Below, one piece after another: positions 9,689-64,000 of a stretch of 64,000 nt of DNA. This stretch comes from Patescibacteria group bacterium (lineage in GTDB: Bacteria > Patescibacteriota > Patescibacteriia > XYB2-FULL-38-15), in the NCBI GenBank assembly GCA_041650995.1, contig JBAZJZ010000001.1, positions 363,302 through 427,301 on the forward strand, in the 5' to 3' direction. The notes under the pieces are model-generated. The model ran no database searches and was not told where the DNA came from. It was given only the letters and a program-made list of their open reading frames with translations. Position numbers and translations under genes: made by a program. Position 1 is the stretch's first letter. Every line of letters begins with the position of its first letter.

Positions 9689-9857
9689 ATTGATAAGAAA
9701 TTATATAAATAAAAAACTGTGGGATTACCACAGAACACGAATGAAAAACCGAAAAATCACGGTTTTTACCTCGGCAGGAAATTAAGCCCCGCCTAAGCGG
9801 GACGCCTGCTGTCTTTGGTAATTTATTTATACTACAACATCCCCCAAAACCTGTCAA
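9689..9857 (-). promoter_or_regulatory. rplJ promoter (TTGACA-17-TAGTAT) and structured L10 leader with attenuator-like hairpins
   Basis: TTGACA at 9857-9852 on the minus strand; leader has cagcagg..cctgccg, aaaaccg..cggtttt and ctgtgg..cccacag+T-run hairpins. Confidence 0.35.
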
Positions 9858-9882
9858 GTTTAATTTGTCCACAGGACTTTCT

Positions 9883-9918
9883 AATAAAAAAGCCCGCCAT
9901 CCAGAGTGAATGACGGGC
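9883..9918 (-). terminator. terminator of GC-rich cassette G1
   Basis: gcccgtc...ggcgggc stem followed by TTTTTTATT on the minus strand. Confidence 0.45.
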
Positions 9919-9953
9919 AGAGACGGGCGTCCTAGACCGAGCGAATCCCGAGC

Positions 9954-10568
9954 CTAGAACTTCCGGCAGGAGGCCGAACCGTGATTCGGAAGAGCGCTAC
10001 CGCCCCAGCGCCAATCAAGCACGGTCCGACCGCTGATCACACGAAGACAGGCCACATCCTCGCGCTGCTTACGACGAACGGAACCCGGCAGGTCCATGAC
10101 GTGGCCGTCGCGGCGCGTGGTGTCGCTCACAACCTCGGGGTACTGGATGTAGGCCGAAACGGCTTCGAGCACCGTGAGGCCGAGTTCGTTCTTTGCGAAG
10201 TTGTGGCGACAGTCGACCACCGAACGGTTCCGGTTTTGACGGCCATCCTGCATCCGAATCCAAAAGGGAACTTCTGGATTACTGTGCAGAGCGTTCCACA
10301 ATTCGAAGGTTTTGTCGCTGCCGTCGAAGTCGATGTTGCCGCAAGCGCAGAGCCTCTTGAGCGGCAGCCGCGACTCCACGAGCACGAGGAGCGGAAAATC
10401 CTTGTCCGGAAGACGAAGCTGCGGAGGAATCTTGGGAATGGTCGCGAGGTACTTCTCGAAACTCGGAAAATCGAGCTCATGGCCGATGCCCGGCTCGCTG
10501 TTTCTCAAACGCGCCGTCTGGATCTCGTGCAGTTGGGCCACGTGGCCAAGATCGAAAAGGTCTCCCAT
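9954..10568 (-). CDS. G1: GC-rich cassette protein of unknown function (about 204 aa)
   Basis: AGGAGAAAAAAG-ATG Shine-Dalgarno; third-codon-position GC very high on the minus strand; own promoter and terminator. Confidence 0.5.
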   Translation of the reverse strand: MGDLFDLGHVAQLHEIQTARLRNSEPGIGHELDFPSFEKYLATIPKIPPQLRLPDKDFPLLVLVESRLPLKRLCACGNIDFDGSDKTFELWNALHSNPEVPFWIRMQDGRQNRNRSVVDCRHNFAKNELGLTVLEAVSAYIQYPEVVSDTTRRDGHVMDLPGSVRRKQREDVACLRVISGRTVLDWRWGGSALPNHGSASCRKF

Positions 10569-10621
10569 CTTTTTTCTCCTTCCATCCCGCGGCAGTTCCG
10601 GAGACAGCGCTTTGGCCATAA

Positions 10622-10703
10622 CCGGAATAAACCGAAGGACAGCTCGTCGCCGAACCCATTCCGGCGAACATTTTATTATTGTCTGTTTAAACAAAAAAGT
10701 CAA
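10622..10703 (-). promoter_or_regulatory. G1 promoter (TTGACT-17-AATAAT) and GC-rich hairpin leader
   Basis: minus-strand TTGACT at 10703-10698 and AATAAT at 10680-10675; ccggaat..attccgg hairpin at 10622-10664. Confidence 0.4.
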
Positions 10704-10738: not shown

Positions 10739-11416
10739 TTATTTTATCACGCTTCCCTTAAACTTTTCTCCCTTTAAAAATTTTCTAAAGTTATCTAAAT
10801 GATTTGCTTTCATAATTACAACTTCCATTCCCCATTTTTCCGCAAAACGCGAAGCAATTGGATCAAACGGCGCGTGCATGCGCGGAATCCATTTACTCCC
10901 GACCATTTTCCTGTACTCTGCCCATTTTAGATTTTTGATAGGCCTGGCGTTTTTAAACTTTTTAGGATTTTTATCATAAACGTAATCCGTATTGGTTAAA
11001 TTTATTACTTGTTTCGCACCAAAATTTTTTGCCCACAAAATCGCGTCTTTGTCTGACGAACACCCCGGCAACCAGCCAGAAGCAATTATTATTTTTTTAT
11101 TAGTTTTAATTTTCTCTGTCGGATTAATAGCCACTTTTTCATACGCGGCCTCGCTAAAAATCACCCTCACTAACTCTGCGTTCAATTTTGTCGCGGCAAT
11201 ACCAAGCCAATCTAAATCAACGTTTTTAATCTTTGCTAATTTTTTCGCCGCCGCGTTATATTTTTTATTTGTCCCTCCTCCGCCGGCCACTATTACCGCC
11301 CGCCCGCCATTTTTAATAAAATCCAAAATCGCCCGACGAAAATTTTTTAAAAAAATCGTGTCCACTTCGTCTGGCACGATAACTGATCCGCCGAGAGAAA
11401 CTATTAATGTTTTCAT
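10739..11416 (-). CDS. amino-acid-kinase family protein, archaeal-type UMP kinase-like
   Basis: MKTLIVSLGGSVI...VIVAGGGG glycine-rich kinase motifs. Confidence 0.55.
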   Translation of the reverse strand: MKTLIVSLGGSVIVPDEVDTIFLKNFRRAILDFIKNGGRAVIVAGGGGTNKKYNAAAKKLAKIKNVDLDWLGIAATKLNAELVRVIFSEAAYEKVAINPTEKIKTNKKIIIASGWLPGCSSDKDAILWAKNFGAKQVINLTNTDYVYDKNPKKFKNARPIKNLKWAEYRKMVGSKWIPRMHAPFDPIASRFAEKWGMEVVIMKANHLDNFRKFLKGEKFKGSVIK

Positions 11417-14386: not shown

Positions 14387-14758
14387 ATGGCCCAATCAGC
14401 GCGACCGGAGACTCCCAGACTGTATCGCCTCACGATTCGCCGCCCATCATCCGATCCAAAGACGCCAGAACTCATGGACATCGTCAGCGAAGCGTTTCTG
14501 TTCACCAAGCCGGACGGATTCCCCATGACCGAAGCCATCGCCAAACAGAGAGCCACGAGAGTCCAGGAAACACTGCCGCCGGGCTGGGAAGCCAAGGTCA
14601 CGGAAGAGCCCTTCCTTGTCACGCATGGCACGCCGGCAATCGTCGGCACCTGCCGACGCGCGACTTGCCAGAATTTCGGCATTGGGGCTCCAAATCGCTT
14701 CCGCTGCCCCGAGTGCGGCGAGCTGACCGCGATCGAGATGGTCGCAACCGTAGAGTAG
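14387..14758 (+). CDS. G2: GC-rich cassette protein (123 aa) with C-terminal Cys4 zinc-ribbon
   Basis: AAAAGGAGG-N6-ATG; C..C...C..C at the C-terminus; high GC at third codon position. Confidence 0.55.
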   Translation: MAQSARPETPRLYRLTIRRPSSDPKTPELMDIVSEAFLFTKPDGFPMTEAIAKQRATRVQETLPPGWEAKVTEEPFLVTHGTPAIVGTCRRATCQNFGIGAPNRFRCPECGELTAIEMVATVE

Positions 14759-14766
14759 CGACTTCA

Positions 14767-14821
14767 CCCGAACCGATTGACTGAGTTTAGGATAACTCTC
14801 CATCGGCTCGGGTATTTTTTA
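14767..14821 (+). terminator. G2 terminator
   Basis: cccgaaccgattg...catcggctcggg stem followed by a T-run. Confidence 0.5.
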
Positions 14822-20494: not shown

Positions 20495-20521
20495 TCATTG
20501 TTCCCCGGAAAGGAGAATTCC

Positions 20522-20995
20522 ATGGAAACCACGAGCGCCGACAAGCGCCAAAATCCCGTTCAAAATCAGTTTGAGCGTCTGGTCGCTGCCTTGCGGATGG
20601 AAGAATCCGCCGTGGCCGACTGGCTCGAGGAAACGCGGGACGACTTGGCCGGTATTTTCGGCGAGACGGAACTTGCCCTGGCCTGGGAAAACATCTCTTT
20701 TCTCTCCTACATCTGGGTGATGCTCGGCACGATCGAAAAGATGAGGGAGAAGGGCCGGTTGCCCACGATCACCGTCAACTCCTACCTACAAGCCACTCGC
20801 GAGTGGAACGACCGGGAAATCCGCGCTCAACTGGAGTGTGAGATCCTCAAGGCCATGCAGACGTTCCAACGCGAATCTTACGAAGACTTCGAAACTCTCC
20901 TCAGCGGTTCTCCTTCCGAGAACCAGAGGGCAGAAAGCTGTTGCCGCGGGAAGCTAGCAAAGCTCCTGCGTTTGGTCAGACTCTCTCAGCAGTAA
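20522..20995 (+). CDS. G4: GC-rich cassette protein, helical, unknown function (157 aa)
   Basis: AAAGGAGAA-N4-ATG; start METTSADKR. Confidence 0.55.
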   Translation: METTSADKRQNPVQNQFERLVAALRMEESAVADWLEETRDDLAGIFGETELALAWENISFLSYIWVMLGTIEKMREKGRLPTITVNSYLQATREWNDREIRAQLECEILKAMQTFQRESYEDFETLLSGSPSENQRAESCCRGKLAKLLRLVRLSQQ

Positions 20996-35152: not shown

Positions 35153-35241
35153 AATATTTGATAAAAACAACCAATTACTTAATTACTACCAATTACTTAA
35201 TTACAACGAGGTAATTAGGTAATTGCTATTTTATTATTTTG

Positions 35242-36828: not shown

Positions 36829-37014
36829 ATTATATCAAAAAATTAAAATTAAAACAAAGCCCCCGAGTGATGCCCGGAGTGACACGCTTTAGCGTGTTAC
36901 TTACCGAAATAACAGCCTAAAGGCTGTCAGTCCGATTTATTAAAAATAAAAAAATGCCCCGTTCCATTTCTTCGGCTTTGTGAAAGCTTCAGATTTGAAA
37001 CGGGGCCAAGAGAC
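36829..37014. repeat. conserved structured flank, copy 1 (G5 terminator hairpins plus outward TGATATAAT promoter)
   Basis: about 80% identical to 56973-57176; three hairpins; extended -10 on the minus strand at 36837-36829. Confidence 0.7.
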
Positions 37015-37080
37015 CGAAAGTCCAAGGATCCGAGTGACCCGGCCTTTTTGAAGGGCCGAGTTACCCAGGATCCAAGGACC

Positions 37081-37542
37081 CTACTTGCGACGGAGCACCC
37101 GGAAGCCGCCGCCCCAGTCGTAGCCGAGCCAGCGCCAGTCCTGGCACCAGCCGTCGTCGTGCCAGCGGACGCACGCCACGAGCCCGCGGTCGACCGGGAA
37201 CCGCCAGTCCGGGAAGACGAAGACGACCTTGCCGCGGAGAGCGGCAGGGACCTCGTCCTGGTGGGCGAGGAGGAACTCGCAGTCCTCCTTGCCGAGGTTG
37301 GCGCCGAGCCTCTCGGCGCGGGCGACCATCACGCGGCCGACCACCGAGGTCTCGCCCTCCCAGAGGAAGGAGAGGATCTCGTAGGTGCGGCCGCCGATGG
37401 TCATCTCGGTGGGGAGGGAGGACTTGACGAGCGTCTCGGCGAACTCCCGCACCGCCTCGGTGTTGTCCGAGGAGACGAGTGCCGAGAACAGTTCGTCGCC
37501 GATCTCGCGCTGCAGATGGGCCGTAGAACGCAGAGTATCCAT
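37081..37542 (-). CDS. G5: GC-rich cassette protein, paralog of G8 (153 aa)
   Basis: shared block LPTEMT.GGRTYEILSFL...LGKEDCEF.LAHQDE.PAALRGK.VFVFPD with G8. Confidence 0.55.
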   Translation of the reverse strand: MDTLRSTAHLQREIGDELFSALVSSDNTEAVREFAETLVKSSLPTEMTIGGRTYEILSFLWEGETSVVGRVMVARAERLGANLGKEDCEFLLAHQDEVPAALRGKVVFVFPDWRFPVDRGLVACVRWHDDGWCQDWRWLGYDWGGGFRVLRRK

Positions 37543-37784
37543 TGCCGTTTCCTTTTGCCTCCTCTTTCGAGAAAGCGCACTCCTCGCCGACCTGGCAAAG
37601 AGGAAGCGCCGGTTTCCCAGCCTTCTTTCCAAATTTTATTATTCTTCGAGCGGAACGGAGCGAAGTCGAGAAGCGGTTCTCGACACCCCGCCGAATTGGC
37701 GGGTTGCTCGAACAATAAAATAGAGAAAGAAAACCGGGAAATTAACCAAAATTTCGCTTAAAAAGAACTATTTACTAACAATTA

Positions 37785-37813
37785 AATATACCATATTTTA
37801 ATGGTTTTGTCAA
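37785..37813 (-). promoter_or_regulatory. G5 promoter (GGGGTTGACAAAA-17-TATATT), followed by about 230-nt structured leader
   Basis: minus-strand TTGACA at 37813-37808, TATATT at 37790-37785. Confidence 0.5.
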
Positions 37814-37827
37814 CCCCATTTTTCTAT

Positions 37828-37888
37828 GTCATTCCCGCGAAAGCGAGAATCCAGATTACTGGATCCCCGGGTCAAGCCCGAGGATGAC
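37828..37888. mobile_element. MITE-like double-hairpin repeat, copy A
   Basis: GTCATTCCCGCGAAAGCGAGAATCCAG-ATTA-CTGGATCCCCGGGTCAAGCCCGAGGATGAC; terminal inverted repeats GTCAT(T/C)CCC / GGGGATGAC. Confidence 0.65.
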
Positions 37889-37894
37889 AAAATA

Positions 37895-46507: not shown

Positions 46508-46586
46508 GTAACGGGTAACGCGTAACGGGTAACGCGTACAAGCGTATCAAAAATTACCAATTACTAATTACCAATTACCAATTACT
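46508..46586. repeat. tandem heptanucleotide repeats (GTAACGS)x4 and (CAATTAC)x4-5 filling the tsf-rpsB spacer
   Basis: direct reading of gtaacgggtaacgcgtaacgggtaacgc and attaccaattactaattaccaattaccaattact. Confidence 0.8.
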
Positions 46587-47379
46587 CCGATAAATTATTT
46601 TTTTCTTCCTTCACCTCTTCTGCTTTTGCTTCTTCCTCTTCCACAACGACCGGGGCTGCCGGTTTTTCCGGAGCCGCACCTCTTTTTGCTTCAAACTCCG
46701 CCTTCCCTTCTTTCACGGCCGCGGCCACGAGCCCAACCATCATTTCAATTGCTTTTACCGCGTCGTCGTTTGAGGGAACCGGATAATCAACGTCATCCGG
46801 ATTGATATTTGTGTCACATAACGCGACAACCGGAACCTTTCTTTTTCTCGCTTCAGCCACCGCGGTTTTTTCCGCTTTGACATCAACGACAAAAATCGCT
46901 TCAGGCAATTTTTTTAAAGTTTCAATGCCGCCAACCAATTCTTCCAACTTCACGATTTCTTTTTGAAAATTCAGCTGCTCTTTTTTGGTGTATTTCGCGA
47001 GTCCGCCGGTCGCTGTCTTATTTTTCAAATCAGTGAAGCGGTCCGTTACGGTTTTGATGGTTTTGAAATTCGTGAAAGTTCCTCCGAGCCAACGTGTCGT
47101 GACATAAGGCATGCCGGCATCTTTCGCGTAGCGTTTCACAATTTCTTTGGCCTGCTCTTTTGATCCAACAAAAAGAACAACTCCGCCCGCGGCTGTTGTT
47201 TTTTTAATAAAATCTAGCGCCTCTTTTAATTTTTTTGCCGTTTCTTCTAAGTTGATGATGTGGATATCGCTCCGCTCTCCGAAAATATACGGCTTCATTT
47301 TCGGATGCCATTTAGAAGCCTTGTGCCCAAAATGAACACCGGCCTGGAGCATTTCCAACATTGTTGGGATCTCTGACAT
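46582..47379 (-). CDS. rpsB: 30S ribosomal protein S2 (acidic C-terminal extension)
   Basis: LEAGVHFGH motif; start at MSEIPT. Confidence 0.9.
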   Translation of the reverse strand: MSEIPTMLEMLQAGVHFGHKASKWHPKMKPYIFGERSDIHIINLEETAKKLKEALDFIKKTTAAGGVVLFVGSKEQAKEIVKRYAKDAGMPYVTTRWLGGTFTNFKTIKTVTDRFTDLKNKTATGGLAKYTKKEQLNFQKEIVKLEELVGGIETLKKLPEAIFVVDVKAEKTAVAEARKRKVPVVALCDTNINPDDVDYPVPSNDDAVKAIEMMVGLVAAAVKEGKAEFEAKRGAAPEKPAAPVVVEEEEAKAEEVKEEKNNLSE

Positions 47380-47581
47380 AAGTTTTCCTTTTCGCCTCTG
47401 TTTTGCCAAAACTTGCGGGTCCCGCCAGGGCGGGATCAGGAACAAGTTTTTAAGAGCAAAACATGTGGGATTATTTAAATTTAAGATTTTAGATTGTAGA
47501 TTGTAGATTTAAAACAAAAATCCATAACCCATAATCTATAATCCATTCTCGCACAAAACTAAAAATCGCGCAAGGGTTTAA

Positions 47582-47633
47582 TAAAAAAACGCCCTGCCGA
47601 GCCAAGCGTCGAAACACTTGACCTCGGCAGGGC
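47582..47633 (-). terminator. G6 terminator
   Basis: gccctgccgag...ctcggcagggc stem; T-run on the minus strand. Confidence 0.55.
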
Positions 47634-47639
47634 TGAAGG

Positions 47640-48332
47640 TCAGGGCCCGTCGTGACCGTAGACCCTGAAGCGCTCACCGGTCTCCGGCCGTTCGTAGGCC
47701 AGATACCAGGAGACGCCCACGCTGAGCGGATCCTCGCCCGGACGACGTGAACGTGTCGCGTCCACCTCACCGAGCATCAGATCCGTCGGTCGGACCTCCT
47801 CCTTGCGACGCGACGGGAGAAGGAGAATCTCCTCGCGCTTGAGTGCGGTCGGCAGCATGGGTGAGGTGTAGTAGAAGTCGCCCTGGGCCGTCACGTAGAT
47901 CTTGAGCGGCCAGAGCGACTCGCCGCCGTCGTGCGTCCGCAGAACCTTGATCTTGCGAACCAGGTGATCGGTCGGCTGAACCTGATCCATCGGACGGCCC
48001 GGCCGCGGACAGAGTCTGTCCCACTCATCGTCCGAGAGAGGGACATCACAGAAGAAGTTCGGGCAGACACCCAGGATAAGCGGACTGCCGCAGTTCCTAC
48101 AGCGTTCCGGCGTACCACCACAGGTGTGCAGCATCACGCCCCCGCCGATGACGATCTGGCTGGCCTGACACTGAACGTACCGAGCCACCTTGACCACTCG
48201 TACGAAGGGCTCCACGCACTCATTGCCGTAGATGCTGTTCTGGAACAGCACCCGGGCGTAGTGGGCCATGACGCGCCTCTCGGCCGCGAAGCAGCCGACG
48301 CAGATCTCGTTCTGGCTCATCTTCTCCTCCAT
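47640..48332 (-). CDS. G6: GC-rich cassette protein, Cys-rich (multiple CxxC zinc-ribbon-like pairs), 230 aa
   Basis: CVGC..C..C, CGGTPERCRNCG, CPNFFC; high GC at third codon position. Confidence 0.5.
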   Translation of the reverse strand: MEEKMSQNEICVGCFAAERRVMAHYARVLFQNSIYGNECVEPFVRVVKVARYVQCQASQIVIGGGVMLHTCGGTPERCRNCGSPLILGVCPNFFCDVPLSDDEWDRLCPRPGRPMDQVQPTDHLVRKIKVLRTHDGGESLWPLKIYVTAQGDFYYTSPMLPTALKREEILLLPSRRKEEVRPTDLMLGEVDATRSRRPGEDPLSVGVSWYLAYERPETGERFRVYGHDGP

Positions 48333-48380
48333 CCTCTGGCTGTTCCTCAGCCAAGGTCCAAGTCCATCTTGGAACTTATA

Positions 48381-48409
48381 AAAATATCACAGAAAATTAT
48401 TTTTGTCAA
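48381..48409 (-). promoter_or_regulatory. G6 promoter (GGGGTTGACAAAA-17-TATTTT)
   Basis: minus-strand TTGACA at 48409-48404. Confidence 0.4.
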
Positions 48410-50547: not shown

Positions 50548-50622
50548 TGAAGGAAGGTGGCCCTAAATCTCGGCCCGACGGACGGGACGAGTTAAAATAG
50601 GGAAGGTTGAGGAGGATAGGGA

Positions 50623-50832
50623 ATGTTGAATCCGATTTGGGTCGACGGAATACGCCTCGTCGACGACAATGGCCAACCGCTTTGGGCGGATCGTGGCCCC
50701 ATCGAAATTTCGTCGAGGCGACCGCATCAGCCCGGTGGCGAAGGGAATGACGACATGTTCTTCCCGGACGACGAAGAAGCGGCCAGGCGGCGAAGCGACG
50801 CCCGGAAGAGAGACCGTCGGCGCCAGCAGTAG
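50623..50832 (+). CDS. G7: GC-rich small cassette protein (69 aa), acidic then Arg-rich tail
   Basis: GAGGAGGATAGGGA-ATG Shine-Dalgarno; followed by about 150 nt GC-rich untranslated region and a terminator. Confidence 0.4.
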   Translation: MLNPIWVDGIRLVDDNGQPLWADRGPIEISSRRPHQPGGEGNDDMFFPDDEEAARRRSDARKRDRRRQQ

Positions 50833-50987
50833 TATCCCGTCCCACCATCAACGTGAGAGCTGCGAGCTTCGCTCGCCCACTCTCCGTTTCAAGTTCGCGC
50901 CCCCCCTCCCGGAAGCGGCGCGAAGCCCGCGTAGCGGAAAACGGGGAACACGAGTTCCCCGCCCCCCCCTCCTCGCTACCGGGCCCC

Positions 50988-51050
50988 AGCCCGTGGATTG
51001 TTTTGGAGAGATCTCCCCTCCTTCAAGCAGTCCACGGGCTCCTTTTTTTA
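50988..51050 (+). terminator. G7 terminator
   Basis: agcccgtgga...tccacgggct stem followed by a T-run. Confidence 0.5.
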
Positions 51051-51065
51051 TGCTACAATAATCGC

Positions 51066-51950
51066 ATGACAATAAAACAATCTCTCATTTTGGCGACAAA
51101 AATTTTACAAAAAAATAAACTATCCTCCCCTGCTCTGGACGCCGAAGTCCTCCTATCTTTTGTTATAAAAAAACAAAAAGAATTTTTGTACGCACATTCT
51201 GAAAAAAAATTAACCGCGGCGCAATTTTTAAAATTTAAAAAACTGATCGCCCGGCGTTCTAAACATGAGCCTATCGCCTACATCATTGACCACAAATTTT
51301 TCTACGGCCTGAATTTTTTTGTTGATAAAAATGTTTTAATCCCCCGCCCGGAAACGGAAACACTAGTTGAAACTGTAATCGATAAAAATCCAACTGCAGT
51401 CGTTGACGTGGGAACCGGCAGCGGCGTTATTGCCATCTCACTCGCTTATCATCTACCCAAAACGAAAATTTTTGCCACGGAAATTTCGCCGTCCGCGGCC
51501 AAAATTGCGCAAAAAAATATTCTTCATCATAAAGTCACCATTACTTTGCTTCGCGGAAATCTTCTTGAACCTTTTTTAAAAAATTTAAAATCAAAAATAA
51601 AAAACTTAAAATCTTTAATCGTTGTCGCCAATCTCCCCTATCTCAAAACTCGTCAATGGAAAAAAACTCTGCCAGAAATAAAAAAATATGAGCCACGGCA
51701 AGCTCTGGACGGCGGTGAAGATGGTTTGAATTATTACCGCGAACTTTTACAGCAAATCGAATTACTAATTACCGATTACCAATTACCAATTACTTCAATC
51801 TTCGAAATTGATCCATCTCAAAAAAAAACCATTGCGAAATTGGTCAACTGCCGCTTCCCTGCCGCGAAAATTGAAATAAAAAAAGACCTCGCCGGCCGAG
51901 ATCGGGTTGTTATATTTAAAATAAATCCCAAAAAACAATCAATTACTTAA
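51066..51950 (+). CDS. prmC: release factor glutamine methyltransferase PrmC/HemK
   Basis: VGTGSG SAM motif, NLPY (NPPY-type) motif, C-terminal DLAGRDRV; start at MTIKQ after the G7 terminator. Confidence 0.75.
   Translation: MTIKQSLILATKILQKNKLSSPALDAEVLLSFVIKKQKEFLYAHSEKKLTAAQFLKFKKLIARRSKHEPIAYIIDHKFFYGLNFFVDKNVLIPRPETETLVETVIDKNPTAVVDVGTGSGVIAISLAYHLPKTKIFATEISPSAAKIAQKNILHHKVTITLLRGNLLEPFLKNLKSKIKNLKSLIVVANLPYLKTRQWKKTLPEIKKYEPRQALDGGEDGLNYYRELLQQIELLITDYQLPITSIFEIDPSQKKTIAKLVNCRFPAAKIEIKKDLAGRDRVVIFKINPKKQSIT
51759..51793 (+). repeat. five tandem heptamers (NAATTAC) inside the prmC coding sequence
   Basis: gaattac taattac cgattac caattac caattac. Confidence 0.8.
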
Positions 51951-52007
51951 TTACTATTTACCAATTACTGAAATCTGCAAATGGTAATTAGTAACTGGTA
52001 ATTACGG
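51939..52007. repeat. CAATTAC/GTAATTA heptamer repeats arranged as an inverted repeat in the convergent spacer
   Basis: caattacttaattac...tggtaattagtaactggtaattac. Confidence 0.7.
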
Positions 52008-56031: not shown

Positions 56032-56871
56032 TTAATGCAAAGGCTTCGGCGCGGCCAAGGTAATAAATTGCAAAACATCCGCGTGATCTGAAACTATTTT
56101 TATCGTCTTTTCATCTAGATCTTCGTTGTGGCGCGCCATAAATTCCAAAACTTCTCCATAGTTTTTAAGGTCTCTTCCTTCGCCGAGAAATCCGCTGCGA
56201 ATCAGAATATAATTTATAAATTTAAGCAATTGCTTTTCAGCTGAAGCAAGAAATTTATATTTTTCTCCCGCGTCCTCTGTTAAATTCGGCTTTTCCACCA
56301 TTAATTTTTGCAGAGCAACTGTTTTTTCAGGACTAAGCGCCAAAACAACACGCGGCATTTGAACTTCGCCCGCTATTCCGTCCGGATCTTCAAAATATTT
56401 AATCGAAGCCATTTTTCTTCCGGCCAATTTTTCAAAATTTTTATCCGCCTTGCGGCGTAAAACCATTTCATCCGAAGAAGTCGTGGCATCAATCGCGAGA
56501 TTTATAAATCTGTCTGTGTCTTCATCATGAAAAGTTACGACAAAATCCGCGCCATTCATTACATCGTCATATTCTGAAGTTTTTTGGATTGAAAAAACAT
56601 TGTCACCAAACCAGCCGTGAACTTTTATCCCTTCCATCAAAACATACTCCAAAGCGACCGCCTCGCTTCCTCGTTCATGAATATACCTCGGCGATTTTTT
56701 AATTTCAGAAACTTTTTGCAAATCCGCGGCTACCTCTTCTCGCTTATACGGCCGATCAACAAAATCTTCCGGGACAAACGCAGAGTCTCTCCAAGACCGA
56801 GCAATCTCCCGATTAAAATTTTCGTCGTCGGTTTGACCCCAAACTCTCCGGCGATCCAGCGCCGCCACCAT
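56032..56871 (-). CDS. hypothetical protein; start taken at MVAALD after a GAAGGAAG Shine-Dalgarno
   Basis: ORF. Confidence 0.4.
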   Translation of the reverse strand: MVAALDRRRVWGQTDDENFNREIARSWRDSAFVPEDFVDRPYKREEVAADLQKVSEIKKSPRYIHERGSEAVALEYVLMEGIKVHGWFGDNVFSIQKTSEYDDVMNGADFVVTFHDEDTDRFINLAIDATTSSDEMVLRRKADKNFEKLAGRKMASIKYFEDPDGIAGEVQMPRVVLALSPEKTVALQKLMVEKPNLTEDAGEKYKFLASAEKQLLKFINYILIRSGFLGEGRDLKNYGEVLEFMARHNEDLDEKTIKIVSDHADVLQFITLAAPKPLH

Positions 56872-56972
56872 TCTTCCTTCAATTCCTACTGCCATAATTG
56901 GAATAGCAGGCTTTAGCCTGCGCTTATTTTTCTTACTTCGACGCGAGCTAAAGCTCGCTAATCTATTTTTAT

Positions 56973-57176
56973 ATTATATCAAAAAAATTAAATTAAAACA
57001 AAGGCACTCTGGCAAAAAAAATTCGGCGTGACACCCGGAGTGACACCCTTTAGGGTGTTATTTCAAACAACATTGTAACAGCCTAAAGGCTGTCAGTCCG
57101 ATTTATTAAAAAATAAAAAAACGGCCCCGCTTCATTTCCTTTGCTTTGTGAGCATTAGATTTGAAACGGGGCCAAG
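56973..57176. repeat. conserved structured flank, copy 2 (G8 terminator hairpins plus outward TGATATAAT promoter)
   Basis: about 80% identical to 36829-37014. Confidence 0.7.
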
Positions 57177-57189
57177 GAACCTTCTGTCT

Positions 57190-57250
57190 GTCATTCCCGC
57201 GAAAGCGGGAATCCAGATTACTGGATCCCCGGGTTAAACCCGAGGACGAC
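57190..57250. mobile_element. MITE-like double-hairpin repeat, copy B
   Basis: GTCATTCCCGCGAAAGCGGGAATCCAG-ATTA-CTGGATCCCCGGGTTAAACCCGAGGACGAC. Confidence 0.65.
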
Positions 57251-57264
57251 ATTGAGGTTGTGGG

Positions 57265-57789
57265 CTACGCGGCTTTGCGACGGAGCACCCGAGCGCCGTC
57301 GTCCCAGCCGACGTCGAGCCAGCCCCAGTACTGGTACCAGCGGTCGCCGCGCCAGCGGAGGTACGCCACGCACTCGCGGCCGACGGGGTACCGCATGTCC
57401 GGGAAAACGAAGACGATCTTGCCGCGGAGTGCGGCGGGAATCTCGTCCTGGTGGGCGAGGATGAACTCGCAGTCCTCCTTGCCGAGGTAGGCGCCGAGCT
57501 TCTCGGCGCGGGCGACCATGGTGTGGCCGTGGACGCGCTCCTCGCCCTCCCGGAGAAAGGAGAGGATCTCGTAGGTGCGGCCGCCGACCGTCATTTCGGT
57601 GGGGAGTTCCAGCTCCGTGGGCTTCGCGGGCTGCCTCGCGATGAGTGCGCCATCGAGCGTCGTGGCCAACAAATCCTGATGCAGAATCCAAAATTGGGCC
57701 AACTCCGGCTCCATGTCCCGCGGCAGAGAGCGCAGCACTGCCGCACCGAGTTCCGCAAACTGATCCGTTCCGAGTTTCTTCTTTCCCAT
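57265..57789 (-). CDS. G8: GC-rich cassette protein, paralog of G5 (174 aa)
   Basis: AAGGAGGAAGCG-ATG; conserved block shared with G5. Confidence 0.55.
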   Translation of the reverse strand: MGKKKLGTDQFAELGAAVLRSLPRDMEPELAQFWILHQDLLATTLDGALIARQPAKPTELELPTEMTVGGRTYEILSFLREGEERVHGHTMVARAEKLGAYLGKEDCEFILAHQDEIPAALRGKIVFVFPDMRYPVGRECVAYLRWRGDRWYQYWGWLDVGWDDGARVLRRKAA

Positions 57790-58045
57790 CGCTTCCTCCT
57801 TGGCTTATCCTGGTTCATCTCTTTAGGAGAGGCAGGACTTAAGGAGAGGCAGGACTTACCAAAAGCGGCTGGAACCCTTTCCCAGCCTTGTTTTGATTGT
57901 GCTCCCCTCTTAAGATAAGAGGGGCTGGGGGCGTTATGAATCTTTGTTTTTAAATCTACAACTCATAACCCCTCTTAATCTCCCCTTACCTTAAGGGGAG
58001 AAACCAGAGCACTGCCAAAAGAAAGGTAGAAACTTCCAACGTTTC

Positions 58046-58074
58046 ATAATATTCCATTATTACCTTTTTGTCAA
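58046..58074 (-). promoter_or_regulatory. G8 promoter (GGGATTGACAAAA-17-TATTAT), followed by about 270-nt hairpin-rich leader
   Basis: minus-strand TTGACA at 58074-58069. Confidence 0.5.
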
Positions 58075-58087
58075 TCCCTCTTTTGAT

Positions 58088-58154
58088 GTCATTCCCCGGC
58101 TTGACCGGGGAATCCAGAAATAGGAACTGGATCCCCGATCGGGTCGGGGATGAC
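58088..58154. mobile_element. MITE-like double-hairpin repeat, copy C (variant loops)
   Basis: GTCATTCCCCGGCTTGACCGGGGAATCCAG..CTGGATCCCCGATCGGGTCGGGGATGAC. Confidence 0.65.
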
Positions 58155-58197
58155 AAAAAACAAACTTCTGGCGAAGCTTGTTTTCTCAAAAACATTA

Positions 58198-63686: not shown

Positions 63687-63703
63687 ATACGATTTTTATC
63701 AAT

Positions 63704-63762
63704 GTCATCCCCGACCTGATCGGGGATCCAGTAATCTGGATTCCCGCTTTCGCGGGAATGAC
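63704..63762. mobile_element. MITE-like double-hairpin repeat, copy D (opposite orientation)
   Basis: GTCATCCCCGACCTGATCGGGGATCCAG-TAAT-CTGGATTCCCGCTTTCGCGGGAATGAC, reverse complement of the A/B type. Confidence 0.65.
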
Positions 63763-63769
63763 AAATCAT

Positions 63770-64000
63770 ATGATTCTTGGAATAAAAAAACTACACGAAT
63801 TAGTTAAAGAAATAAATTTAGTAGAAAATTTATGCGACCGGGAAAAAAATAATCCCGAAGGCGCCGGTTTTGATTTGCGGCTCGGAGAAATTTACGAATT
63901 GGAAGGCGACGGATTTTTGGGTGTGGAAGAACGCAACACGCCGACCATTAAACTTGTGGCAAAAAATGAAGAAGGAAAACCGGAGAGCGAAAATTATTTT
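63770..64000 (+). CDS. dCTP deaminase/dUTPase-family protein, N-terminal part (runs off window end)
   Basis: GAGFDLRLGE motif. Confidence 0.45.
   Translation, partial: MILGIKKLHELVKEINLVENLCDREKNNPEGAGFDLRLGEIYELEGDGFLGVEERNTPTIKLVAKNEEGKPESENYF

What the first reader, a model, noticed from the sequence alone, without database searches (positions are those of the whole stretch)
36829..37888. G5 and G8 are paralogous cassettes sharing a structured 3' flank with covariation and an outward promoter
G5 (37081-37542) and G8 (57265-57789) encode clearly related proteins. The conserved block is LPTEMT(I/V)GGRTYEILSFL..GE....G..MVARAE(R/K)LGA.LGKEDCEF(L/I)LAHQDE(V/I)PAALRGK(V/I)VFVFPD. Downstream of each (lower coordinates) lies an about 180-bp flank that is roughly 80% identical between the two copies (36829-37014 and 56973-57176). 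It contains three hairpins. In the first hairpin the two copies differ by a compensatory pair: gtgacacGc-ttta-gCgtgt in copy 1 versus gtgacacCc-ttta-gGgtgt in copy 2. This argues for selection on the RNA or DNA structure. The flank ends with TGATATAAT (an extended -10) pointing at the next host gene. In copy 1 that gene is the NiFe hydrogenase large subunit. In copy 2 it is the hypothetical gene at 56032-56871. The insertion therefore brings its own read-out promoter, as some insertion sequences do.
Basis: seen in the sequence. Interest (0 to 1): 0.85.

Follow-up and report, generated by a model that had tools for sequence, protein, structure and literature searches.

The report
Retroelement-diversified lectin genes, not mobile cassettes
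The two GC-rich "cassettes" are copies of a small lectin-fold gene whose tail end is rewritten by a diversity-generating retroelement in ultra-small (CPR) bacteria, a known kind of system; their shared structured flank is mostly the gene's terminator plus a small hairpin repeat.

Summary
G5 and G8 are paralogues, their 3' flanks are 86% identical over ungapped columns, the three hairpins exist, and both flanks end in TGATATAAT.

The interpretation misses what the genes are. They belong to a CPR-specific family of small variable proteins of diversity-generating retroelements (DGRs).
- The last ~41 codons vary almost only at positions 1-2 of NNC codons set between fixed TGG codons.
- In relatives the same gene is followed by a template repeat, bAvd and a reverse transcriptase. 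Mismatches fall only at template adenines (17/31 versus 0/91).
- The predicted fold is C-type lectin.
- The 64-kb window holds no template repeat or reverse transcriptase, so both genes are non-adjacent or orphan targets.

Both loci are syntenic in related genomes. I found no transposase, terminal repeats or target duplication.

The flank has three parts: the family's intrinsic terminator, a hairpin doublet found only at these two loci, and an extended -10 that is the host's ordinary promoter type. The "covariation" is one G:C to C:G swap among 36 pairs in two sequences, which carries no statistical weight.

G5 keeps the hairpin that follows the variable region. G8 has a small repeat element at its stop codon, and its variable region appears frozen.

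The parts
37785..37813 (-). G5 promoter, TTGACA-17-TATATT with TG
   Evidence: It matches 11 of 12 consensus positions. The promoter and the first ~30 transcribed nt are conserved in L003, L008 and L001.
37543..37784 (-). G5 5' leader, with a conserved block next to the ribosome-binding site that includes the hairpin AAGGCTGGGAAACCGGC (37608-37624)
   Evidence: This block is 88-89% identical to the leaders in L006 and L008. The motif occurs only at the two loci in the window.
37081..37542 (-). G5 coding sequence: 153-aa DGR variable protein with a type-B N-terminus and a C-type-lectin-fold domain
   Evidence: GC is 69%, GC3 is 0.93 and adenine is 13% of the sense strand.
37084..37206 (-). G5 variable region (VR), about 41 codons, ending in the IMH-like CGGGTGCTCCGTCGCAAG
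   Evidence: Variation is at NNC codons between fixed TGG codons. The 3' end is identical to the template-repeat 3' ends in L009, L025, L027 and L029. Mismatches to those non-cognate template repeats hit 64-77% of adenines and 17-34% of other bases.
37017..37082 (-). Long inverted repeat after the VR, starting in the stop codon; analogue of the DGR hairpin/cruciform
   Evidence: Folding is. It is conserved in L001, L003, L007 and L022, and other sequences of the same design are present in L026, L028 and L030.
36941..37006 (-).
   Evidence: I2. The same terminator follows the L003 gene (81-94% identical). Its three U-A to U-G changes fit an RNA read from the minus strand.
36875..36935 (-). Hairpin doublet H3 (36878-36901) and H2 (36910-36929), an inverted pair of sTGACAssCTTTAGssTGTTA units
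   Evidence: The doublet is absent from L001, L003 and every other related locus held.
36829..36857 (-). Promoter-like site TTGTTT-17-TGATATAAT facing the hydrogenase large-subunit gene (start 36802)
   Evidence: The -10 is a perfect extended type. The -35 matches only 3 of 6, so the consensus scan did not list it. Function is untested.
58046..58074 (-). G8 promoter, TTGACA-17-TATTAT
   Evidence: It matches 11 of 12 consensus positions.
57790..58045 (-). G8 5' leader, carrying small repeat elements, a 17-nt tandem repeat (57821-57854) and the conserved hairpin at 57867-57889
   Evidence: It is 84-86% identical to the L001 leader.
57265..57789 (-). G8 coding sequence: 174-aa DGR variable protein with a type-A N-terminus, ending ...RRKAA*
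   Evidence: It is syntenic with the L001 gene next to gyrB.
57274..57396 (-). G8 variable region, apparently frozen
   Evidence: It is built of NNC codons. The VR-containing block of the alignment is 97.8% identical to L019, against 81.6% for the rest of the domain and 93.5% for gyrB.
57182..57251 (-). Small palindromic repeat element (GTCATTCCCGCGAAAGCGGGAATCCAG family), lying 13 nt after the G8 stop codon in place of the post-VR hairpin
   Evidence: (D9). The same arrangement occurs in L006 and L019.
57109..57173 (-). Intrinsic terminator of G8
   Evidence: It is 94% identical to the L003 terminator.
57036..57100 (-). Hairpin doublet H3/H2 of the G8 flank, which can also fold as one long hairpin
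   Evidence: The arms 57036-57060 and 57076-57100 are 88% complementary.
56973..56981 (-). TGATATAAT facing the 279-287-aa gene (56032-56895)
56896..56968 (-). Third doublet of the same design (gcaggcTTTAgcctgc ... gcgagcTAAAgctcgc), lying between the putative promoter and the next gene
   Evidence: I2, 74% complementary.

Best explanation
G5 and G8 are two members of a CPR (Patescibacteria) family of small variable proteins of diversity-generating retroelements (DGRs).

**How the system works.** A DGR reverse transcriptase, with its partner protein Avd, copies a template repeat (TR) into cDNA and misreads adenines while doing so. The cDNA then replaces the last ~41 codons of the gene, the variable region (VR). 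This randomises the AAC-derived codons on the binding face of a C-type-lectin fold.

**Status of the two genes.** Neither a TR nor a reverse transcriptase lies in the 64-kb window. Both genes are therefore non-adjacent targets served in trans, or orphans.

**What the 'cassette' is.** It is the conserved transcription unit of this target family: its own sigma-70 promoter and leader, the coding sequence with the VR, an IMH-like GC-rich end (IMH is the initiation-of-mutagenic-homing sequence), an inverted repeat that starts at the stop codon (the analogue of the DGR hairpin/cruciform), and an intrinsic terminator.

**The extra shared stretch.** About 110 bp are shared only by these two loci: the two TTTA/TAAA-loop hairpins and an AT-rich stretch ending in TGATATAAT. 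This is inferred to result from a segmental duplication or gene conversion between the two paralogous loci in this lineage. The event would have carried along a REPIN/MITE-like hairpin doublet and a host-type extended -10.

**Likely competence.** G5 keeps its IMH and hairpin and looks competent for retrohoming. G8 has a small repeat element (MITE) just after a stop codon displaced two codons downstream, and its VR is unchanged in a sister lineage, so it is probably no longer diversified.

**Shown and inferred.** Family membership, the fold, the synteny and the anatomy are shown. Current activity, the promoter's function and the conversion event are inferred.
For: **Codon signature.** In G5, G8, L001, L003 and L004 the last ~41-45 codons differ almost only at positions 1-2 of NNC codons between invariant TGG codons.

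**Relatives with a full DGR.** Family members sit 0.4-1.3 kb upstream of a ~123-nt repeat, bAvd and a reverse transcriptase carrying GNLTSQLF...YADD.
- L009: VR1 and VR2 against the TR show 17/31 and 18/31 mismatches at adenines and 0/91 elsewhere.
- L007: 12/28 at adenines against 1/96 elsewhere.

**Template repeats from metagenomes.** A metagenome scan with the VR frame returned three TRs encoding NWNWLDNDWNDNDRVLRRK and five VRs. The TR 3' end, CGGGTGCTCCGTCGCAAG, is identical to the end of the G5 coding sequence. G5 and G8 mismatch those non-cognate TRs at 64-77% of adenines against 17-34% of other bases.

**Nothing in the window.** No TR, AAC-rich stretch or YxDD reverse transcriptase was found.

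**Synteny.**
- L003 has a family member between the hydrogenase small and large subunits; its HyhL is 87% identical.
- L001 has one between gyrB and the orthologue of the 287-aa gene; its GyrB is 91% identical.

**Conserved unit.** The promoter and leader, the post-VR hairpin and the terminator are shared across loci and genomes. The H2/H3 doublet is found only at the two window loci.

**G8 frozen.** Against L019 the VR-containing block is 97.8% identical, the rest of the domain 81.6% and gyrB 93.5%.

**Literature.** CPR DGR targets are small and lack known domains, non-adjacent targets exist, and an IMH plus a downstream inverted repeat define the target site (PMC8144416, PMC5758913, PMC3240598).
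Against: - No cognate TR or reverse transcriptase was found for the source genome. None of the 120 best reverse-transcriptase relatives comes from the 567-kb contig.
- A close relative from the same study has an empty XerC-rpsO site where L008 carries the DGR. The genes may therefore be relics.
- The region of high nucleotide identity between G5 and G8 (~336 nt) is much longer than a VR (~123 nt). DGR homing alone cannot explain it.
- Within-genome identity in the non-VR part (86.6%) is only slightly above cross-genome values of 80-86%. The support for gene conversion therefore rests mainly on the flank.
- The hairpin doublet has no demonstrated origin. Its genome-wide distribution could not be examined.
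- TTTA/TAAA-loop hairpins are oddly concentrated downstream of DGR targets: 8 of 9 fall in 3.6% of the sequence examined.
Confidence: 0.75

Rival explanations
1. G5 and G8 are copies of a mobile cassette. Its structured 3' RNA/DNA element is under selection, and it carries an outward promoter that restores transcription of the gene downstream of the insertion, as some insertion sequences do.
For: - A GC-rich gene with its own promoter and terminator splits the hydrogenase small- and large-subunit genes, so the large subunit needs a new promoter.
- A perfect extended -10 lies at the end of the shared block in both copies.
- One compensatory pair is present.
- In a relative, the whole DGR cassette is absent from an otherwise conserved XerC-rpsO site, so these units can be gained or lost.
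Against: - No transposase or recombinase gene lies in the unit, and no terminal inverted repeats or target duplication were found.
- Both positions are occupied in related genomes.
- Homology between the two copies starts in the middle of the coding sequence, not at an element end.
- The hairpins are missing from the orthologous loci, while the hydrogenase gene there still has TGATATAAT.
- TGNTATAAT is the general host motif.
- The covariation has n = 2.
Confidence: 0.1
2. The TTTA/TAAA-loop hairpin doublets are functional DGR-associated DNA structures. They would be extra cruciform-type elements that help recruit or stall the homing machinery at non-adjacent targets.
For: - Their design matches published DGR cruciforms: GC-rich stems of 6-9 bp whose sequence varies, and a constant 4-nt loop (PMC3240598).
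- Of 9 such hairpins in 306 kb, 8 lie within 500 nt downstream of a VR end. One of these is the +24 hairpin of L004.
- The compensatory change keeps the stem.
Against: - They lie 154-344 nt from the VR and beyond the terminator, against 4-34 bp in known cases.
- Their loop is not GRNA.
- They are absent from the reverse-transcriptase-adjacent loci whose VRs match a nearby TR (L007, L008, L009, L020) and from L001 and L003.
- G5 already has a canonical post-VR inverted repeat.
- The counts are not independent, because two of the doublets are copies of one another.
Confidence: 0.1
3. The flank is a cis-regulatory RNA or a small RNA gene that acts on the downstream gene, and it is conserved for that reason.
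For: - The predicted folding is strong (z -8.2 and -7.5).
- A third doublet lies in the putative 5' UTR of the gene after G8.
Against: - There is no Rfam match beyond generic hairpin noise.
- H2 and H3 lie upstream of the putative promoter and downstream of a terminator, so they may not be transcribed with either gene.
- The two downstream genes are unrelated.
- The element is absent from orthologous loci.
Confidence: 0.04

Closest known systems
DGR variable proteins with a C-type-lectin fold (Bordetella phage Mtd, Treponema denticola TvpA, and the CPR 'clade 2' targets of Roux et al. 2021 and Wu et al. 2018)
   Same: - The VR is C-terminal and made of AAC-derived NNC codons.
- Relatives show adenine-only TR/VR mismatches.
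- Relatives have bAvd and a reverse transcriptase next to the gene.
- The predicted fold is C-type lectin.
- The proteins are small and have no Pfam domain, as reported for CPR targets.
- The N-terminal parts are modular.
   Different: - The two copies in the window have no TR or reverse transcriptase within 64 kb.
- The whole gene is extremely GC-rich (GC3 0.86-0.93) in a 42% GC genome, while the reverse transcriptase and Avd genes of relatives have host-like composition.
- One copy sits inside a hydrogenase operon.
Non-adjacent or remote DGR targets (for example the seven remote TvpA paralogues of Treponema denticola)
   Same: Several paralogous targets sit at separate chromosomal sites, each with its own IMH-like end and downstream inverted repeat.
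   Different: - Whether a single TR serves G5 and G8 could not be tested here.
- In the 2018 survey, targets more than 100 kb from the reverse transcriptase were seen only outside the CPR set (PMC5758913).
BPP-1 IMH plus hairpin/cruciform target-recognition element (Guo et al. 2011)
   Same: - The VR has a GC-rich 3' end identical to the TR end.
- It is followed at once by an inverted repeat whose sequence differs between loci while the structure is kept.
   Different: - The repeat here is long (about 25 pairs with bulges, loop 9 nt) or, in other subfamilies, two short hairpins with TTYG/TTGC/TTTA loops. The phage element has a 7-10-bp stem with a GRNA tetraloop.
REP / BIME / REPIN and MITE-type palindromic repeats
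   Same: - The H2/H3 and third doublets are inverted pairs of short palindromic units.
- They lie in intergenic DNA just after terminators.
- They sit in regions crowded with other small palindromic repeats.
   Different: - Only three doublets occur in 64 kb, all next to the two DGR targets.
- No RAYT-type transposase was identified.
- The genome-wide copy number is unknown.
Insertion sequences with outward-facing promoters (for example IS1, IS10, ISAba1)
   Same: A consensus -10 at the edge of an inserted unit points at the neighbouring gene.
   Different: - There is no transposase and there are no terminal repeats or target duplication.
- The positions are conserved in related genomes.
- The -10 is the ordinary host type.

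Membership tests
DGR variable-protein (target) gene | VR at the 3' end of the coding sequence, with variation confined to codons that derive from TR adenines (AAC to NNC) | tested here: met
   Codon alignment of G5, G8, L001, L003 and L004. G5 and G8 mismatch non-cognate TRs at 64-77% of adenines against 17-34% of other bases.
DGR variable-protein (target) gene | A cognate TR in the same genome that differs from the VR only at adenines | tested here: inconclusive
   There is none in the 64-kb window, and the rest of the genome was not available. The feature is met in homologous loci: L009 17-18/31 at adenines against 0/91 elsewhere, L007 12/28 against 1/96.
DGR variable-protein (target) gene | A DGR-type reverse transcriptase (and Avd) encoded in the genome | tested here: inconclusive
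   The window has no YxDD/SQ-motif ORF. No hit from the 567-kb contig appears among the best 120 reverse-transcriptase relatives. The feature is present next to family members in L007, L008, L009, L020, L024 and L029.
DGR variable-protein (target) gene | IMH-like GC-rich VR end followed by an inverted repeat | tested here: met
   G5: CGGGTGCTCCGTCGCAAG is identical to TR ends, and the hairpin is at 37017-37082. G8 does not meet this feature: the end is ...CGCAAAGCCGCGTAG and a small repeat element replaces the hairpin.
DGR variable-protein (target) gene | The VR is displayed on a C-type-lectin (or Ig) fold | tested here: met
Insertion sequence / mobile cassette with outward promoter | Encodes a transposase or recombinase | tested here: not met
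   The only ORF is the lectin-fold protein, which has no Pfam hit.
Insertion sequence / mobile cassette with outward promoter | Terminal inverted repeats and target-site duplication at the element ends | tested here: not met
   Only weak AT-rich matches were found at the unit's edges. Homology between the copies begins inside the coding sequence.
Insertion sequence / mobile cassette with outward promoter | Copies at different, non-orthologous sites in related genomes | tested here: not met
   The hydrogenase and gyrB sites are both occupied in relatives.
Insertion sequence / mobile cassette with outward promoter | A functional outward promoter | not testable with these tools
   A consensus TGATATAAT is present. 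The -35 is weak and the site was not listed by the scan. Transcription-start mapping is needed.
REP/REPIN/MITE-type repeat (hairpin doublet) | Short palindromic units arranged as inverted pairs | tested here: met
   Arms 57036-57060 and 57076-57100 are 88% complementary; arms 56896-56922 and 56942-56968 are 74% complementary. H2 is an inverted variant of H3.
REP/REPIN/MITE-type repeat (hairpin doublet) | Many dispersed copies in the genome's intergenic regions | tested here: inconclusive
   Three doublets occur in 64 kb, all in two intergenic regions. None occurs in about 240 kb of related loci apart from two single hairpins in L004. The whole genome was not available.
Structured RNA family under selection | Significant covariation across independent sequences, or a match to a curated model | tested here: inconclusive
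   One double-sided change in 36 pairs with n = 2, and the shuffles are uninformative. There is no Rfam match.

The most novel reading that the evidence does not exclude
**Reading.** In this CPR lineage, DGR target genes would be self-contained expression modules that are shuffled by recombination. Each module runs: conserved promoter and leader, swappable N-terminal part, lectin VR, cruciform, terminator.

**What would follow.**
- The modules colonise housekeeping operons, such as the gap between the hydrogenase small- and large-subunit genes, and supply the promoter for the downstream gene.
- The TTTA-loop hairpin doublets are a new DGR-linked DNA element that marks non-adjacent targets.
- Insertion of a small repeat element at the stop codon acts as an off-switch that freezes a VR.
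Probability: 0.12. Interest if true: 0.65.

Novelty: new member of a known kind. Interest (0 to 1): 0.4.

Why it matters
**Annotation.** The result turns two unannotated "hypothetical" GC-rich islands into recognisable parts of a hypermutation system. It also shows that a codon-level signature (NNC codons between fixed TGG codons, plus a hairpin after the stop codon) can flag DGR targets far from any reverse transcriptase. Metagenome surveys state that they miss such targets.

**Testable leads.**
- N-terminal modules appear to be exchanged between target loci.
- A target sits inside a hydrogenase operon.
- A small repeat element at the stop codon coincides with a frozen variable region.
- The GC and adenine bias covers the whole target gene but not the reverse transcriptase.

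None of these overturns current understanding of DGRs.

Tried and rejected
- **DGR acting inside the window.** Rejected. I searched for a third VR-like copy, for the conserved VR 3' end, for AAC-rich frames and for reverse-transcriptase motifs. None was found.
- **Known RNA family for the flank.** Rejected. Rfam gave nothing at gathering thresholds and only noise at permissive ones: miRNA-like long hairpins, and a weak FtrB match to the palindromic repeat.
- **A leader or trailer shared by all GC islands.** Rejected. The leader, hairpin and terminator motifs occur only at G5 and G8. The other islands lack the VR signature and have no Pfam hits.
- **Finding the source genome's reverse transcriptase.**
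  - The search with a relative's reverse transcriptase was swamped: 8000 candidates, with none of the best 120 from the 567-kb contig.
  - The search through the syntenic PNPase neighbour led to a close relative with an empty XerC-rpsO site. I could not prove that this contig belongs to the same genome.
  - The metagenome pattern scan did not include the source contig.
- **Assembly chimera as the cause of the GC islands.** Rejected. An independent ENA assembly is 100% identical across the G8 locus, and related genome assemblies show the same synteny.
- **Sequence search of the PDB.** Uninformative. Only the comparison of folds showed the lectin domain.
- **A structure string that was off by one.** My first string for helix 4 was one column out of register. 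I corrected it.
Full report
**1. Observation**

The window is 41.6% GC and holds several islands above 58% GC. Two of them are 36989-37627 and 57166-57823.
- G5 (37081-37542, minus strand, 153 aa) and G8 (57265-57789, minus strand, 174 aa) are 71% identical over their last 112 residues. Their N-termini are unrelated.
- At the DNA level the shared part is 85-92% identical.
Identity is 85.6% over 180 ungapped columns and 73% when indels are counted.
- Read on the gene's sense (minus) strand, the flank contains four features in order:
  - a long interrupted hairpin followed by a T-run;
  - hairpin H2, TGACAGCC-TTTA-GGCTGTTA;
  - hairpin H3, TAACAC(G/C)C-TAAA-G(C/G)GTGTCAC;
  - an AT-rich stretch ending in TGATATAAT.
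- The 3' regions fold far better than shuffles, with z -8.2 and -7.5.
- The downstream genes are a NiFe hydrogenase large subunit and a 279-287-aa protein with no Pfam hit. The upstream genes are the hydrogenase small subunit and, divergently, gyrB.

**2. Weight of the "covariation"**

I counted the three hairpins on the two-sequence alignment, which gives 36 pairs.
- One pair changed on both sides (G:C to C:G in H3).
- Three pairs changed from U-A to U-G, all in the terminator.
- One cell is unpaired.

With two sequences the shuffle control cannot discriminate (250 of 500). The U-A to U-G changes fit a terminator that works as minus-strand RNA. A single compensatory pair in a DNA palindrome is not evidence of selection on structure.

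**3. What the genes are**

Pfam finds nothing. A search of the large protein collection found 43 relatives, and every one that carries a taxon name is from Patescibacteria. It also showed that the window comes from a 567-kb Patescibacteria contig. A profile search finds 1397 clusters at E <= 1e-3.

*Codon pattern.* The decisive clue came from aligning codons of G5, G8 and three relatives.
- In the last ~41-45 codons nearly all differences are at positions 1 and 2 of NNC codons (GGC, GAC, TAC, TGC, CGC, CAC, GTC).
- These lie between invariant TGG codons.
- The region ends in a fixed CGG GTG CTC CGT CGC AAG.

This is the footprint of adenine-directed mutagenesis of AAC codons by a diversity-generating retroelement (DGR).

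*Relatives.*
- In L007, L008 and L009 a family member is followed within 0.4-1.3 kb by a ~123-nt repeat and a reverse transcriptase ORF with the DGR-type GNLTSQLF...YADD motifs.
- In L020 it is followed by a bAvd gene and the start of a 309-aa ORF cut by the contig end. In L024 it is followed by an RVT_1 gene.
- In L009 two tandem target genes differ from the template repeat (TR) at 17 and 18 of 31 adenines and at 0 of 91 other bases. In L007 the numbers are 12/28 and 1/96.

*Metagenome scan.* A scan with the VR frame as the pattern returned three more template repeats, encoding NWNWLDNDWNDNDRVLRRK, and five variable regions.
- The 3' end of those TRs is identical to the end of the G5 coding sequence.
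- G5 and G8 mismatch these non-cognate TRs at 64-77% of adenines against 17-34% of other bases.

*Literature.*
- CPR "clade 2" DGR targets are typically small and lack recognisable domains (PMC8144416).
- Many CPR variable regions remain unclassified (PMC5758913).
- Modular N-terminal parts suggest intragenic recombination (PMC8144416).

**4. No retroelement in the window**

The 64 kb contain no third VR-like copy, no AAC-rich frame and no reverse-transcriptase motif. G5 and G8 are therefore non-adjacent targets or orphans. I could not settle which.
- None of the 120 best relatives of a sister genome's reverse transcriptase lies on the 567-kb contig.
- The metagenome collection that I scanned does not hold the source contig.
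- A close relative from the same study series has XerC and rpsO adjacent, exactly where L008 carries target-TR-Avd-RT. The DGR core is therefore present in some genomes of this group and absent from others.

**5. The "cassette" is the family's conserved transcription unit, at conserved positions**

*Synteny.*
- L003/L005 (a Falkowbacteria genome assembly, HyhL 87% identical) has a family member between the hydrogenase small and large subunits.
- L001 (GyrB 91% identical, downstream protein 75%) has one between gyrB and that gene.

*Features shared across these loci and the reverse-transcriptase-adjacent ones.*
- A near-consensus promoter, TTGACA-17-TATATT/TATTAT, and the first ~30 transcribed bases.
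- A leader block next to the ribosome-binding site, with the AAGGCTGGGAA hairpin.
- A long inverted repeat that begins in the stop codon.
- An intrinsic terminator. The G8 terminator is 94% identical to that of L003.

*The post-VR inverted repeat.* Its sequence differs between subfamilies, but it is always there. This matches the IMH-plus-hairpin/cruciform target element defined for phage BPP-1, in which stem structure matters and stem sequence does not (PMC3240598). It is the better-supported structured element.

*Tests for a mobile element.* I found no transposase, terminal repeats or target duplication.

**6. The part of the flank that is special to this genome**

Beyond the terminator, about 110 bp (H2, H3 and the AT-rich stretch up to TGATATAAT) match only between the two window loci. 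They are absent from the orthologous loci L001 and L003 and from all other loci fetched.
- H2 is an inverted variant of H3 (sTGACAssCTTTAGssTGTTA).
- In the G8 copy the two arms pair as one long hairpin: 25-nt arms, 88% complementary.
- A third doublet of the same design but with different stems lies at 56896-56968, between TGATATAAT and the next gene.
- These intergenic regions are full of other small palindromic repeats.

*The -10 motif.* TGNTATAAT occurs 8 times in the window against 1.9 expected. At least three other copies lie 35-75 nt upstream of host gene starts, including gyrB. It also precedes the hydrogenase large-subunit gene in L003, where H2 and H3 are absent. It is therefore the ordinary host promoter type, not a signature of the unit.

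*Explanation of the shared stretch.* My best explanation is a segmental duplication or gene conversion between the two paralogous loci in this lineage. It would run from the middle of the coding sequence to the -10 and would have carried a REPIN/MITE-like doublet with it. This is an inference.
- Within-genome identity in the non-VR part of the gene (86.6%) is only marginally higher than cross-genome values of 80-86%.
- The flank is therefore the main support for it.

*Other signs of recombination among family members.*
- The hydrogenase locus carries a type-B N-terminus in the window, like the reverse-transcriptase-adjacent gene of L008. In L003 the same locus carries an unrelated type-D N-terminus.
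- G8 against L019 shows a sharp breakpoint inside the gene.

**7. G5 versus G8**

- G5 keeps CGCAAG-TAG and the post-VR hairpin, so it looks competent for retrohoming.
- G8, like L006 and L019, ends ...RRKAA*. A copy of the GTCATTCCCGCGAAAGCGGGAATCCAG repeat follows 13 nt after that stop codon, where the hairpin would be.
- In L019, whose gyrB is 93.5% identical, the VR-containing block and the repeat element are about 98% identical to G8. The rest of the conserved domain is 81.6% identical and the 5' part of the gene is about 80%.
- A variable region that is more conserved than a housekeeping gene is not being diversified. The G8 variable region is probably frozen.

**8. Unexplained**

- Among 118 perfect GC-containing tetraloop hairpins in 306 kb of non-redundant CPR sequence, 9 have TTTA/TAAA loops. 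Eight of those lie within 500 nt downstream of a VR end, a zone that makes up 3.6% of the sequence.
  - The counts are not independent, because two doublets are copies of each other.
  - The pattern of variable stems with a constant loop does recall DGR cruciforms.
  - Their distance from the VR (154-344 nt, beyond the terminator) and their absence from the RT-adjacent loci L007, L008, L009 and L020 argue against a required role.
- The extreme GC3 (0.86-0.93) and low adenine content cover the whole target gene. The reverse transcriptase and Avd genes of relatives have host-like composition. This is also unexplained.

**9. Verdict**

The sequence observation is confirmed. The mobile-cassette, covariation and read-out-promoter interpretation is at most partly supported. 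The real identity is a pair of non-adjacent DGR variable-protein genes in a Patescibacteria genome, which is a new member of a known kind. The finding is of moderate interest for four reasons:
- it shows a way to recognise DGR targets without the reverse transcriptase;
- one target is placed inside a hydrogenase operon;
- a variable region appears to have been frozen by a small repeat element;
- the hairpin doublets remain unexplained.

Noticed in passing
window 9881-10626, 14396-14817, 20518-20876, 47563-48381, 50614-51071: Five further GC-rich islands (56-63% GC) lie in a 41.6% GC window. Each holds an ORF with no Pfam hit, and none shows the NNC/TGG signature of a variable region. Their origin is unknown.
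   Followed up: partly
window 37820-37889, 57182-57251, 58080-58155, 63703-63780; also L006, L017, L019: A family of small palindromic repeats (GTCATTCCCGCGAAAGCGGGAATCCAG...CTGGATCCCCGGGT...GAC) is present. In G8, L006 and L019 a copy follows immediately after a coding sequence that ends ...RRKAA* instead of ...RRK*.
   Followed up: partly
window 37608-37624 and 57867-57889; L001 ~2918-2945, L003 ~2918-2945: A conserved hairpin containing AAGGCTGGGAA lies in the 5' leader, 65-100 nt upstream of the start codon of the target genes. It could be a regulatory or processing site.
   Followed up: no
window 37543-37784 versus L003 2700-3000 and L008 9540-9940: The hydrogenase locus carries a type-B N-terminus and leader in the window, like the reverse-transcriptase-adjacent gene of L008. 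In the related genome L003 the same locus carries an unrelated type-D N-terminus. This suggests that modules are exchanged between target loci.
   Followed up: partly
L033 6007-7322 (and L034) versus L008 8511-12746: In a close relative XerC and rpsO are adjacent. In L008 the same gap holds the whole DGR: target, template repeat, Avd and reverse transcriptase. The DGR core is therefore present in some genomes and absent from others.
   Followed up: partly
L008 10275-10397 versus 10750-10872: This VR/TR pair has 15 mismatches at non-adenine positions as well as 22 at adenines. L009 has 0 and L007 has 1. This DGR may be decaying.
   Followed up: no
window 35165-35218, 46552-46591, 51760-51799, 51935-52003: Intergenic arrays of CAATTAC(T/C)AATTAC-type repeats occur in both orientations. 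Their function is unknown.
   Followed up: no
window 57821-57854: A perfect-register 17-nt tandem duplication (CTTTAGGAGAGGCAGGA / CTTAAGGAGAGGCAGGA) lies in the G8 leader just upstream of the ribosome-binding site.
   Followed up: no
window 9701-9836 (-): An Rfam ribosomal protein L10 leader (62.7 bits) lies upstream of the rplJ-rplL genes. It is the only Rfam match in the window above a gathering threshold.
   Followed up: no
window, 8 sites including 19884, 31534, 38709, 43266, 58198: The extended -10 motif TGNTATAAT is four-fold enriched. At least three copies outside the two flanks lie 35-75 nt upstream of host gene starts. This suggests that promoters in this organism rely on an extended -10.
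   Followed up: partly
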